Shown here: one piece after another, positions 40,908-43,340 of the stretch
Position numbering within the stretch: the stretch's first letter is position 1
How the letters are laid out: every line of letters begins with the position of its first letter
Assembly: GCA_964373665.1 (NCBI GenBank)
Contig: CAYJVM010000003.1
Location: forward strand, 1 to 58,729
DNA: 58,729 bases
DNA from: an uncultured archaeon
GTDB lineage: Archaea; Aenigmatarchaeota; Aenigmatarchaeia; CG10238-14; SCSR01
Reading direction: 5' to 3'
Translations under genes and position numbers: made by a program
Notes under the pieces: generated by a model
Databases searched by the model: none
Told to the model about the DNA's origin: nothing
What the model saw: the letters and a program-made list of their open reading frames with translations, nothing else

Positions 40908-43340
40908 TCACAAAACCTCTCTTATAGAGTCTTCTAAGATGTCTAATCCCAAGTCAGCCTGTTCTTTGGTCAAAATCAAAGGAGGACAAATTCTTATGGC
41001 GCTTGCCCCCGCAGGTAGCAGCAACAGCCCCTTTTCACTAGCCTTGCACAAAATATCGCTTCTTTCCTCTACGCCATAAGCTTTCGATTTCTTGTCTTTC
41101 ACAACCTCCACACCGATCATCAAGCCAATGCCCCTCACATCACCGATGATCTCATATTTTTCTTTCATCTCCTCCAACCTTTTCATCATGTAATTTCCAA
41201 TTTTTGCCGCATTCTCCCCCAATTTCTTTTCACGCATAAATTTTAAAGTCGCAATTCCAGCAGCACACGCTAATAAATTACCACCAAATGTCGAGTTAGA
41301 AACCAAAGCTGTAGGTGTGAAATAATTATGATTGTCTTCTACTTCTATATCATATATTGTATTATCTTGTTTTTTGTTGTTAGCTTTTATTACTTTTATC
41401 ACTTTTCCAACTGTCGGGACAAATTCGCTATTATTTATTCGAATTTGTATACCTTCTAACTCTGTATCTCTACGAAATTCTTTAGGTAGTTTATATTGCA
41501 TACAGTTTGGAACAAAAGATGCTATCATTTCAAAAAATTTTCTAGAACCTCGAGATTTATTAACAGTTATTCCAAAAACCTTCTCACCATTTCTAAGAAT
41601 TCTAGGATAAGGCTCCCAATATATTTCGTATTTTCTGGCAAAATATTCAATAACATTACGTAGGGATTCTTTGTCAAAATTATAAGTAGCAATATCTGCT
41701 CTCCATTTTCCGTCATACCGACCATCATCCATAAACCACACAGCCATACCTAGCGGATTAAGTCTTTTAATTAATTCGGGTGGCACATTAAGTTTATTCC
41801 CATTCGTATGCATTACTTTTCTATAATTTAGTAACCAAGGAAAATTCTTAGTTCGAAAGTAGTAAAATCTTTGTCTGTCATATCCATCGTTATGAGAATC
41901 TGGCGATAGTTTTATTTCACAACTTGTCAAGTTCTTTAGTAATTGATATTTGAGTTTAAGATAGTCCAATTGCCTTTCTTGATGACCTATTGTAAGATGT
42001 GGATATCGAGCATTTGAATTTTTACTTTTCGGATTAGATAATGCACCATCACCAAGTAGACTTCCAATTATTACTTGTTCTTGTGTGGGGGCCGGATGCG
42101 GAATAGGCAGAAGTATTTTATCTCCACGTTGCAGATTTCTGACTGTCACCCAACCCTTATTTACTACCCAATACTTATGTTCTTTAGTCACACAAGGTGC
42201 TTGTACACCATTAACTGAGTTTGTAGTGACTACTTTGTACCATTCTAAATTCTTCACGTTTTTCCTTTTAAACCAATTTACTATTTTCTTGGGTTCTGCC
42301 CTTCTAGTTTTATAATTATAACTTAAAACATCTACCTGAAGTTTTTTATTTACTATTTCAGAAATCTCTTTCCTAGAACCATCTGCAAGAACTACTTTAG
42401 CCCTTCTATGAAAACAAGCATGACTTCCTTCTGACCAGTTCATTATTTTTTCATTCGCTACTGTAGCTCCCAAAGGAATACCACCACCGATAGCTTTACT
42501 TAAAGCAACAATATCAGGTTTTACATCAAAGTTCTCTATCGCAAGAAACTTTCCTGTACGATAACAGCCAGCTTGCACTTCATCGCTACACAATAAAATA
42601 TCATTATCATCACACAGTTCTCTAACGCCTTTTACAAAATCGGTCGGCGGAACAATATAGCCCCCCTCACCTGATACAGGCTCCAAAAACACAGTGGCTA
42701 AATCTTTGTCACACTCTGAGATCTTCTGTTCCAGTACATCGAGATATAAATTAACACAGTCGTCATGCTCCTTGTTTTTAAAAGGGCATCGATAGCAGTA
42801 AGGATACAGAGCATGCTTTACTGGAAGGAACGGCCAGAACCTTTCTCTTTGAACTGGTCTGGAATTCGTTAGCGACAAACTCCCCATCGTCCGGCCGTGA
42901 AATGAGGGTTTGAATGCTATAGCCCATTTTTTATTTGTATGCCACCTAGCAAGCTTGTAGGCCGCTTCTACAGCTTCTGTTCCAGAGTTGGAGAGGAATG
43001 CCTTGTTCAAATGCCTAGGCAAGAACTTCAATAGATATTCAACAAATTCAACCGGTTTCTCAGCGTAAAAATCGGAAAAGCCCGCATGCGTCGCATCCTT
43101 TATCTGCCGGCGCAGAGCCTTCTCAATGACAGTGTTAGTATGGCCTATGTTCATGACAGCAACGCCCGCGGCGAAGTCAAGATACTTCCTACCGTCAACG
43201 TCCCATACGTGGCAGCCCTTGGCCTTCTTGAAGACGAACGAATACTCCCTTGTCAAAGATGGGGATATGACTTTCTTGTCACGCTCCAAGATTCTTACGG
43301 ACTTGGGGCCGGGCTTTCTGCAGATGAACTTAGGCTTCAT
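40908..43340 (-). CDS. Class III PLP aminotransferase (ornithine/4-aminobutyrate type) with intein
   Basis: SGTEAVE, FHGRT, EPVSGEGG, DEVQAG, SKAIGGG, HA|STFGGN; 436 aa after removing the intein. Confidence 0.92.
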   Translation of the reverse strand: MKPKFICRKPGPKSVRILERDKKVISPSLTREYSFVFKKAKGCHVWDVDGRKYLDFAAGVAVMNIGHTNTVIEKALRRQIKDATHAGFSDFYAEKPVEFVEYLLKFLPRHLNKAFLSNSGTEAVEAAYKLARWHTNKKWAIAFKPSFHGRTMGSLSLTNSRPVQRERFWPFLPVKHALYPYCYRCPFKNKEHDDCVNLYLDVLEQKISECDKDLATVFLEPVSGEGGYIVPPTDFVKGVRELCDDNDILLCSDEVQAGCYRTGKFLAIENFDVKPDIVALSKAIGGGIPLGATVANEKIMNWSEGSHACFHRRAKVVLADGSRKEISEIVNKKLQVDVLSYNYKTRRAEPKKIVNWFKRKNVKNLEWYKVVTTNSVNGVQAPCVTKEHKYWVVNKGWVTVRNLQRGDKILLPIPHPAPTQEQVIIGSLLGDGALSNPKSKNSNARYPHLTIGHQERQLDYLKLKYQLLKNLTSCEIKLSPDSHNDGYDRQRFYYFRTKNFPWLLNYRKVMHTNGNKLNVPPELIKRLNPLGMAVWFMDDGRYDGKWRADIATYNFDKESLRNVIEYFARKYEIYWEPYPRILRNGEKVFGITVNKSRGSRKFFEMIASFVPNCMQYKLPKEFRRDTELEGIQIRINNSEFVPTVGKVIKVIKANNKKQDNTIYDIEVEDNHNYFTPTALVSNSTFGGNLLACAAGIATLKFMREKKLGENAAKIGNYMMKRLEEMKEKYEIIGDVRGIGLMIGVEVVKDKKSKAYGVEERSDILCKASEKGLLLLPAGASAIRICPPLILTKEQADLGLDILEDSIREVL
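41295..42416 (-). mobile_element. Intein of the aminotransferase (374 aa) with LAGLIDADG endonuclease
   Basis: CFHRRAKVVLADG start, TKEH, GSLLGDG, WFMDDG, YDIEVEDNHNY...VSN|S. Confidence 0.92.

What the first reader, a model, noticed from the sequence alone, without database searches (positions are those of the whole stretch)
41295..42416. Intein in a class III aminotransferase, ending Ser-Asn
Seen: inserted at HA|STFGGN, the conserved loop contacting the PLP phosphate; the penultimate residue is Ser instead of His. From recall, the CF...VVLADG start and the GSLLGDG/WFMDDG endonuclease resemble actinobacterial RecA-type inteins. Metabolic enzymes are atypical intein hosts.
Basis: partly seen in the sequence, partly recalled or inferred. 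Interest (0 to 1): 0.7.

Follow-up and report, generated by a model that had tools for sequence, protein, structure and literature searches.

The report
Mobile intein splitting an archaeal aminotransferase
A self-splicing, mobile protein insert (an intein carrying its own DNA-cutting enzyme) interrupts the cofactor-binding loop of an amino-acid-metabolism enzyme in an uncultured DPANN archaeon; it is a genuine, rarely seen host and site for a well-known kind of selfish element, and its Ser-Asn ending is normal for this intein family.

Summary
ORF 40908-43340 (-) encodes an 810-aa class III aminotransferase (PF00202, E 1.6e-109). It is split by a 374-aa intein at 41295-42416 (-).

The intein has every class 1 splicing residue: Cys1, T77xxH80, D356, H363, Asn374 and Ser+1. 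It carries an I-SceI-type LAGLIDADG endonuclease with both catalytic Asp residues.

It sits between HA and (S)TFGGN. Human OAT Ser321/Thr322 touch PLP; I matched that motif from recall, not by alignment.

Four other same-site alleles exist, and one relative is an Aenigmatarchaeota MAG. They lie in three sublineages mixed with intein-less alleles.

The intein is under purifying selection (dN/dS 0.18), so it is probably a living homing element.

Ser-Asn is not special. It ends 38 of 97 full-length relatives, and the efficient Npu DnaE intein also ends Ser-Asn.

The nearest inteins (36-39% identity) sit in UDG-PolA genes, one in a phage-like replication module. Actinobacterial RecA-site inteins are a more distant clade of the same family.

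I found no paper describing this host or site.

Verdict: a new member of a known kind, of modest interest. Splicing and DNA cleavage are inferred, not shown.

The parts
40908..43340 (-). Precursor gene: class III (PLP, fold type I) aminotransferase with intein, 810 aa. The spliced product would be 436 aa.
   Evidence: ORF. PF00202 E 1.6e-109 in two stretches. Best NCBIfam is PRK05769, the acetylornithine aminotransferase family. The spliced sequence matches PDB 7VNO at E 4.9e-120 over residues 7-434.
42417..43340 (-). N-extein, aa 1-308, ending ...ALSK(PLP-Lys)AIGGG...EGSHA
   Evidence: the Lys in ALSKAIGGG aligns with the Lys of 7VNO ...VAKALGGG.
41295..42416 (-). Intein, 374 aa (precursor aa 309-682)
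   Evidence: AlphaFold2 model with mean pLDDT 91.6. Foldseek matches to inteins and to I-SceI.
42093..42416 (-). HINT splicing domain, N-terminal part (intein aa 1 to about 108). Cys1 is at 42414-42416. Block B Thr77 is at 42186-42188 and His80 at 42177-42179.
   Evidence: C1 and H80 are invariant and T77 is at least 90% conserved in 37 related inteins. The fold matches the Mtu RecA mini-intein (TMt about 0.6, rmsd about 2 A).
41442..42092 (-). I-SceI-type LAGLIDADG homing endonuclease domain (intein aa about 109-325). Motif 1 is IIGSLLGDG, with Asp123 at 42048-42050. Motif 2 is AVWFMDDG, with Asp231 at 41724-41726.
   Evidence: PF03161 E 2e-27. Sequence hit to I-SceI. Foldseek to I-SceI and I-WcaI with TMt 0.73, rmsd 3 A. 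D123 and D231 are invariant in 37 relatives. dN/dS is 0.23.
41295..41441 (-). HINT splicing domain, C-terminal part (intein aa 326-374). Block F is YDIEVEDNHNYF, with Asp356 at 41349-41351 and His363 at 41328-41330. Block G is ALVSN, with Ser373 at 41298-41300 and Asn374 at 41295-41297.
   Evidence: N374 is invariant. Spacing Asp356 to His363 is +7 and His363 to Asn374 is +11, the same as the Mtu RecA intein D422/H429/N440 numbering that I recall.
40911..41294 (-). C-extein, aa 683-810, starting with Ser+1 (TCG, 41292-41294) then TFGGN. Stop codon at 40908-40910.
   Evidence: Human OAT Ser321/Thr322 are PLP contacts (PMC13327489); the motif match is by my recall.
39753..40865 (-). Alanine dehydrogenase/PNT-family gene 42 nt downstream on the same strand. 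It is a probable operon partner; this is context, not part of the intein.
   Evidence: PF01262 and PF05222.

Best explanation
This is a living class 1 intein with an embedded I-SceI-type LAGLIDADG homing endonuclease. It is lodged in a class III aminotransferase, probably an ornithine/omega-amino-acid aminotransferase, of an Aenigmatarchaeota-like DPANN archaeon.

Inferred protein-level mechanism:
- Cys1 makes the N-S acyl shift, helped by block B Thr77/His80.
- The hydroxyl of Ser+1 attacks the thioester to give the branched intermediate.
- Asn374 cyclises and releases the intein. This step is helped by block F Asp356/His363 rather than by a penultimate His.
- An O-N shift restores the peptide bond and gives the normal motif ...SHA-STFGGN....

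The 374-aa insert sits next to the Ser/Thr loop that reaches the PLP phosphate. The enzyme should therefore be inactive until it is spliced.

Inferred DNA-level mechanism: the endonuclease cuts intein-less alleles at the CAYGCN|AAYAC... site. Repair then copies in the intein together with its TCN Ser+1 codon.

The Ser-Asn end is a lineage trait of this intein family, not a defect.
For: - Domains and residues: (C1, H80, D123, D231 and N374 invariant in 37 relatives).
- Structure: the model has pLDDT 91.6, with the HINT domain like the Mtu RecA mini-intein and the endonuclease like I-SceI.
- Four other same-site alleles (52-57% intein identity) keep every catalytic residue.
- Purifying selection: dN/dS is 0.18 for the intein (0.23 for the endonuclease part) against 0.13 for the extein.
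- Patchy distribution: intein alleles lie in three sublineages of one 21-member clade. The window's extein is sister to an intein-less allele with 100/93 support.
- Close relatives differ in content: P0005 has two inteins, P0004 only this one, and P0017 only the other.
- P0003/P0004 inteins are more alike (62.9%) than their exteins (55.5%). For L001/L004, intein dS is 0.47 against extein dS of 0.25.
- Ser+1 is TCN in all four intein alleles read at DNA level. Empty sites carry Asn AAY, or in one case Ser AGC.
- Intein GC is 0.33 against 0.44 for the extein.
- SN ends 38 of 97 relatives, and the working Npu DnaE-C ends IASN|CFN.
- Ser is as common as Asn at the +1 position in intein-less homologues, 54 against 54.
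Against: - No experiment shows splicing or DNA cleavage.
- The intein tree of the five alleles broadly matches the extein tree. One old invasion followed by losses therefore explains the patchiness about as well as ongoing homing.
- Assembled contigs from the source metagenomes show only the occupied allele, with no empty-site form. Contigs do hide rare variants.
- Empty alleles in the clade mostly have Asn at +1, which cannot serve as the splicing nucleophile. Homing into them needs co-conversion of the flank.
- The substrate assignment rests only on homology and neighbouring genes.
Confidence: 0.85

Rival explanations
1. The intein splices but its endonuclease is now inert. It would be vertically inherited and kept only because imprecise deletion at the PLP loop would kill the enzyme. 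The patchy distribution would reflect one old invasion and several precise losses.
For: The intein tree topology (window | P0002, P0003 | P0004/5) is compatible with the extein tree. No empty-site form appears in the source contigs. Most empty sites carry Asn at +1.
Against: Both LAGLIDADG catalytic Asp residues are invariant. The endonuclease domain has dN/dS of 0.23. Intein identity exceeds extein identity for P0003/P0004, and intein dS exceeds extein dS for L001/L004. A dead endonuclease domain usually decays or is deleted, leaving a mini-intein.
Confidence: 0.25
2. Splicing is conditional and serves as a post-translational switch on the aminotransferase. For example it could be slowed by the missing penultimate His, or respond to redox state, temperature, PLP or dimerisation, because the intein sits at the subunit-interface PLP loop.
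For: The insertion is at a functional site. Conditional splicing is documented for other inteins, as cited in the Novikova discussion. A second intein in relatives sits at another conserved motif, FHGR|T.
Against: Nothing in the sequence points to a sensor. Insertion at conserved sites is the general rule for selfish inteins. Ser-Asn inteins such as Npu DnaE are routinely used as working trans-splicing inteins.
Confidence: 0.1
3. The intein cannot splice because the penultimate His is lost. The gene would be an inactivated aminotransferase, in effect a pseudogene.
For: It departs from the canonical His-Asn block G.
Against: Thirty-eight of 97 relatives in many hosts end SN. Five alleles at 52-63% intein identity keep an open frame and all catalytic residues. 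Extein dN/dS is 0.13. The block F His is retained. The allele stands at 85x and 30x depth in two metagenome runs without variants.
Confidence: 0.04

Closest known systems
Inteins at the 3'-5' exonuclease site of UDG-DNA polymerase A fusion genes in uncultured, phage-like replication modules (P0121-P0126, P0131)
   Same: They form the sister clade in the intein tree (support 98) at 36-39% identity over the full length. They share the HINT plus PF03161 architecture and mostly the same ...GLVSN| ending.
   Different: The host protein and insertion site differ. The one contig examined is a primase / 5'-3' exonuclease / PolA / clamp-loader-like / RecA module that looks viral. I know of no name or publication for these inteins.
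Actinobacterial RecA inteins at the ...KIGVMFG|C...HN|SPETT site (the Mycobacterium leprae RecA type; that naming is from my own recall)
   Same: Same broad intein family: start C(F/M)xYSTRVxLADG, the same I-SceI-type LAGLIDADG_2 endonuclease with WYMDDG, and block F DIEVEDNHNYF. Identity is 28-30% over the full length.
   Different: They form a separate clade, mostly end His-Asn, and have a different host and site. The M. tuberculosis RecA intein matches only through the HINT fold.
I-SceI and I-WcaI (monomeric, intron-encoded LAGLIDADG endonucleases; PDB 1R7M, 5A0M, 6X1J)
   Same: The endonuclease domain fold matches (TMt 0.73, rmsd 3 A over about 211 columns). Motif 2 is AVWFMDDG here and AYWFMDDG in I-SceI.
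   Different: Those enzymes are free-standing and intron-encoded. Here the domain is inserted in a HINT domain. Among the top 50 Foldseek PDB matches, the full-length inteins (PI-PfuI, TliVMA, PI-SceI, PI-PkoII) fit only loosely overall (TMq 0.32-0.36) and none reproduces the I-SceI-type domain match.
Npu DnaE split intein
   Same: A naturally occurring, working intein whose C-terminus is Ser-Asn (...GFIASN|CFN).
   Different: It is split, has no endonuclease, uses Cys+1, and is hosted by DnaE.
Inteins in DegT/DnrJ/EryC1-type (PF01041) PLP sugar aminotransferases
   Same: Same intein family at 25-31% identity (P0288, P0197, P0305, P0316). The host is also a fold-type I PLP enzyme.
   Different: A different enzyme family and a different insertion site (near residue 84...TTF|C in P0197).

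Membership tests
Class 1 intein (HINT splicing domain) | Nucleophile (Cys/Ser/Thr) at intein position 1 | tested here: met
   Cys1, invariant in 37 relatives.
Class 1 intein (HINT splicing domain) | Block B TxxH | tested here: met
   T77-K-E-H80. H80 is invariant and T77 is at least 90% conserved.
Class 1 intein (HINT splicing domain) | Block F Asp and His | tested here: met
   YD356IEVEDNH363NYF, invariant in the five aminotransferase alleles.
Class 1 intein (HINT splicing domain) | C-terminal Asn followed by Cys/Ser/Thr at +1 | tested here: met
   Asn374|Ser. N374 is invariant.
Class 1 intein (HINT splicing domain) | Penultimate His (usual, not obligatory) | tested here: not met
   Ser373. 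The same is true of 38 of 97 relatives and of Npu DnaE. It is a consensus feature, not a defining one.
Class 1 intein (HINT splicing domain) | HINT fold | tested here: met
   Model pLDDT 91.6. Foldseek to the Mtu RecA, Ssp DnaB and Npu DnaE mini-inteins gives TMt 0.55-0.62 and rmsd about 2 A.
Class 1 intein (HINT splicing domain) | Autocatalytic protein splicing | not testable with these tools
   Needs expression and SDS-PAGE or mass spectrometry.
LAGLIDADG homing endonuclease, I-SceI type (PF03161) | Two LAGLIDADG motifs, each with a catalytic acidic residue | tested here: met
   LLGD123G and FMDD231G. Both Asp residues are invariant.
LAGLIDADG homing endonuclease, I-SceI type (PF03161) | Profile and fold match | tested here: met
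   PF03161 E 2e-27. I-SceI TMt 0.73.
LAGLIDADG homing endonuclease, I-SceI type (PF03161) | Site-specific cleavage of the empty allele | not testable with these tools
   Indirect support only: dN/dS 0.23 and a patchy distribution.
Class III aminotransferase (PF00202), archaeal ornithine/omega-aminotransferase group | Full-length match once the insert is removed, with the catalytic Lys | tested here: met
   PF00202 E 1.6e-109. Residues 7-434 align to 7VNO with the Lys conserved.
Class III aminotransferase (PF00202), archaeal ornithine/omega-aminotransferase group | Ornithine as substrate | not testable with these tools
   Inferred from the similarity to 7VNO, from PH1423 and TK2101 being ornithine aminotransferases, and from nearby carbamate kinase, OTCase and aldehyde dehydrogenase genes. 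No NCBIfam equivalog cut-off was reached.
RecA-site (M. leprae-type) intein allele | Insertion in RecA at MFG|...|SPET | tested here: not met
   The host here is an aminotransferase. RecA-site inteins form a separate clade.

The most novel reading that the evidence does not exclude
The aminotransferase intein clade descends from inteins of virus-borne UDG-PolA genes. If so, it records gene flow between still-unknown viruses and Aenigmatarchaeota. Together with the second intein at FHGR|T, it would also give a natural system with zero, one or two inteins in one small metabolic gene. In that system, splicing at the dimer-interface PLP loop might gate enzyme activity conditionally.
Probability: 0.1. 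Interest if true: 0.55.

Novelty: new member of a known kind. Interest (0 to 1): 0.3.

Why it matters
It adds a host protein and two insertion sites to the intein catalogue: HA|(N/S)TFGGN here, and FHGR|T in relatives. Both are conserved motifs; the first carries the PLP-contacting Ser/Thr. The host class, amino-acid metabolism, is rare among intein hosts in published surveys.

The small clade holds alleles with no intein, either intein, or both. That makes it a convenient natural set for studying intein gain, loss and interference between neighbouring inteins.

The sister relation to inteins in phage-like PolA genes hints at viruses as the reservoir.

It does not change how inteins are understood, and the Ser-Asn ending is not a mechanistic novelty.

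Tried and rejected
- A first AlphaFold2 run with only the five aminotransferase inteins gave pLDDT 53 and was unusable. A 37-sequence alignment fixed this.
- A direct PDB sequence search with the intein gave only weak hits, with I-SceI at E about 1e-3. The fold search was needed.
- Laying contigs from four metagenome runs on the gene found no empty-site form. This is uninformative, because contigs drop minority alleles and no raw-read or RNA runs were offered.
- The genome search and the fetch from genomes were shut, so I could not look for a second, intein-less copy in the same genome or place the genome taxonomically. Taxonomy rests on a relative's record title and on names of intein-less homologues.
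- The Novikova supplement is not held, so I could not check its full host list.
- I considered that the other intein in this window (thioredoxin reductase, 37536-38711) might be a paralogue. It is not: it has a LAGLIDADG_3-type endonuclease, ends His-Asn|Cys, and belongs to a different family.
- I considered other placements of the intein boundary. Only C309...N682 with Ser+1 gives a legal intein and restores an 8-residue motif the same length as in intein-less homologues.

Full report
**What is there**

The minus-strand ORF 40908..43340 encodes 810 aa. Residues 309-682 (CFHRRAKVVLADG...TPTALVSN) map to window 41295..42416, exactly the coordinates given. Pfam finds Aminotran_3 in two pieces around the insert (E 1.6e-109). 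Inside the insert it finds Intein_splicing (8.3e-15) and LAGLIDADG_2 (2e-27). NCBIfam finds the intein N- and C-terminal splicing regions, and PRK05769 (acetylornithine aminotransferase family) is the best host model. Once the insert is removed, the 436-aa sequence aligns end to end with PDB 7VNO at E 4.9e-120, with the catalytic Lys conserved.

**Anatomy of the intein**

All class 1 splicing residues are present:
- Cys1
- block B T77-K-E-H80
- block F Y-D356-IEVEDN-H363-NYF
- terminal Asn374
- Ser at +1

In an alignment with 36 related inteins, C1, H80, D123, D231 and N374 are invariant, and T77 is at least 90% conserved. D123 (IIGSLLGDG) and D231 (AVWFMDDG) are the catalytic acidic residues of the two LAGLIDADG motifs.

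An AlphaFold2 model built on that alignment is confident (mean pLDDT 91.6, pTM 0.88). Foldseek against the PDB splits it into two parts:
- The endonuclease domain matches I-SceI and I-WcaI (TMt 0.73, rmsd about 3 A).
- The HINT domain matches the Mtu RecA, Ssp DnaB and Npu DnaE mini-inteins (TMt 0.55-0.62, rmsd about 2 A).

Solved full-length inteins (PI-PfuI, TliVMA, PI-SceI) match only loosely as wholes.

**Insertion site**

Intein-less homologues read ...H-A-(N/S)-T-F-G-G-N.... A review of human ornithine aminotransferase lists Ser321 and Thr322 among the residues from both subunits that contact PLP (PMC13327489). I recall the human motif as HGSTYGGNP, with Lys292-to-Thr322 spacing of +30 against +28 here. 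On that basis Ser+1 and the next Thr correspond to Ser321 and Thr322. This mapping is an inference from the motif, not a computed alignment. The spliced product HA-S-TFGGN is a normal version of the motif. Among 114 intein-less homologues the position is Asn in 54, Ser in 54 and Thr in 6.

**The Ser-Asn ending**

I took the best 150 hits of an exhaustive HMMER search with the intein (5273 hits at E<=1e-3; 1832 at E<=1e-10). Ninety-seven matched end to end. Their last two residues are HN in 54, SN in 38, KN in 3, and GN and AN in one each. The sister clade and the DnaX-like clade are mostly SN. The Npu DnaE C-intein, used routinely as a trans-splicing tool, ends ...GFIASN|CFN (PMC5092047). The block F His (H363) is kept. 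From my recall of the Mtu RecA intein literature, that residue helps Asn cyclisation. So the Ser is a lineage trait and gives no reason to doubt splicing.

**Relatives and origin**

Four other 90%-identity clusters carry an intein at the same site:

| Protein | Length | Inteins carried |
|---|---|---|
| P0002 | 809 aa | this site only |
| P0003 | 809 aa | this site only |
| P0004 | 805 aa | this site only |
| P0005 | 1151 aa | this site, plus a second unrelated one at FHGR\|T ending CGN\|S |
| P0017 | 774 aa | the second intein only |

With the window's own protein these five intein-b clusters hold 22 member sequences. One relative lies on a contig titled Candidatus Aenigmatarchaeota AR5 from Rifle groundwater (L009). 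Intein-less neighbours are named Woesearchaeota.

In an IQ-TREE extein tree these proteins fall in one 21-member clade (support 100/100). The intein occurs there in three separate sublineages. The window's extein is sister to the intein-less P0006 (100/93).

In a FastTree tree of 96 inteins, the five aminotransferase inteins form one clade (support 100). That clade is sister (98) to inteins at the exonuclease site of UDG-PolA fusion proteins, which are 36-39% identical. One such PolA lies in a one-strand module of primase, 5'-3' exonuclease, PolA, a clamp-loader-like gene and RecA, which looks viral.

Actinobacterial RecA inteins at MFG|C...HN|SPET, DnaX inteins, RNA-ligase inteins, terminase inteins and DegT aminotransferase inteins belong to the same large family at 25-31% identity.

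**Signs of life and mobility**

- Between L001 (P0005) and L004 (P0004), extein dN/dS is 0.13 and intein dN/dS is 0.18. By part, the values are HINT-N 0.13, endonuclease 0.23 and HINT-C 0.16. Both activities are under purifying selection.
- In that pair, intein dS (0.47) exceeds extein dS (0.25).
- P0003/P0004 inteins are 62.9% identical, while their exteins are 55.5% identical. Both points hint at exchange of inteins between lineages.
- Intein GC is 0.33, against 0.44 for the extein and 0.42 for the window. The same offset holds in the AT-rich relatives.
- All four intein alleles read at DNA level use a TCN codon for Ser+1. Empty sites carry AAY (Asn), and the one intein-less allele with Ser uses AGC. 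The TCN codon therefore travels with the intein, as expected from a single origin and flank co-conversion.
- The intein tree does not clearly conflict with the extein tree. One old invasion plus losses remains a serious alternative to continuing homing.
- Contigs from four metagenome runs show only the occupied allele, at 85x and 30x in two of them.

**Host function (inferred)**

7VNO is deposited as a P. horikoshii-style 'hypothetical 4-aminobutyrate aminotransferase'. PH1423 and TK2101 of this group are ornithine omega-aminotransferases (PMC9986279). The link between 7VNO and PH1423 is from my recall.

The gene is followed, 42 nt downstream, by an alanine dehydrogenase-family gene. Nearby lie an M42 aminopeptidase, an amino-acid permease, carbamate kinase, OTCase and an aldehyde dehydrogenase. 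Relatives keep M42, OTCase and aldehyde dehydrogenase nearby. A role in arginine/ornithine catabolism is plausible but untested.

**Comparison with what is known**

The Novikova et al. survey reports that categories L and F hold most intein hosts: 61.5% and 21.7% in bacteria, 66.9% and 8.3% in archaea. Its main text does not mention aminotransferases (PMC4760082). Three full-text searches combining intein and aminotransferase terms found no description of this host or site.

Earlier notes from this scan list inteins in DegT and HemL-like aminotransferases of DPANN and CPR organisms. I confirmed only that DegT hosts occur among this intein's relatives. The element is thus a new host and site for a well-known kind of mobile element.

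**Verdict**

This is a genuine, probably active homing intein. Its Ser-Asn end is ordinary for its family, and it is a new member of a known kind. Interest 0.3.

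Noticed in passing
window 36960-39149 (-), intein at about 37536-38711: A second, unrelated intein lies 2.2 kb away, in thioredoxin reductase. It has a LAGLIDADG_3-type endonuclease and ends His-Asn|Cys. That makes two intein-bearing metabolic or redox genes within 6.4 kb. It is already the subject of earlier finding e1-5218133.
   Followed up: partly
L001 6001-9456 (P0005) and L002 6001-8325 (P0017): Relatives of this aminotransferase carry another intein of 346 aa, with a LAGLIDADG_3-type endonuclease, at the conserved FHGR|T motif. It ends Cys-Gly-Asn|Ser, so it also lacks a penultimate His. The window's own gene is empty at that site (SFHGRTMGS). P0005 has both inteins, P0004 only the first and P0017 only the second, although the exteins are 79-95% identical.
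   Followed up: partly
window 45810-47081 (+): A free-standing 423-aa ORF gives a weak LAGLIDADG_3 match (E 5e-6) and contains the motif NGIYDGDGC. It has no HINT residues. It sits between the amino-acid permease and the COG2403/cobW-like gene and may be a stand-alone homing-endonuclease-like or regulatory protein.
   Followed up: no
window 41324-41354: The 31 nt encoding DIEVEDNHNY (block F) match other, unrelated contigs of the same metagenome studies with 1-2 mismatches (records of 264-2669 nt in runs X2, X5 and X6). Other inteins of this family therefore live in the same communities.
   Followed up: no
window 49174-49333 (+): Rfam RT-16 RNA hit (66 bits, E 5e-8), the RNA motif linked to diversity-generating retroelements. 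Earlier findings of this scan already cover it. The contig of the intein-less relative P0011 (L024) also carries bAvd and reverse-transcriptase genes next to its aminotransferase.
   Followed up: no
L023 1-11055: The closest non-aminotransferase intein sits in a UDG-exonuclease-PolA fusion. That gene lies in a one-strand module of DnaG-like primase, 5'-3' exonuclease, a clamp-loader-like AAA protein and a RecA/Rad51-like protein. It is probably an uncultured virus or plasmid replication module.
   Followed up: partly
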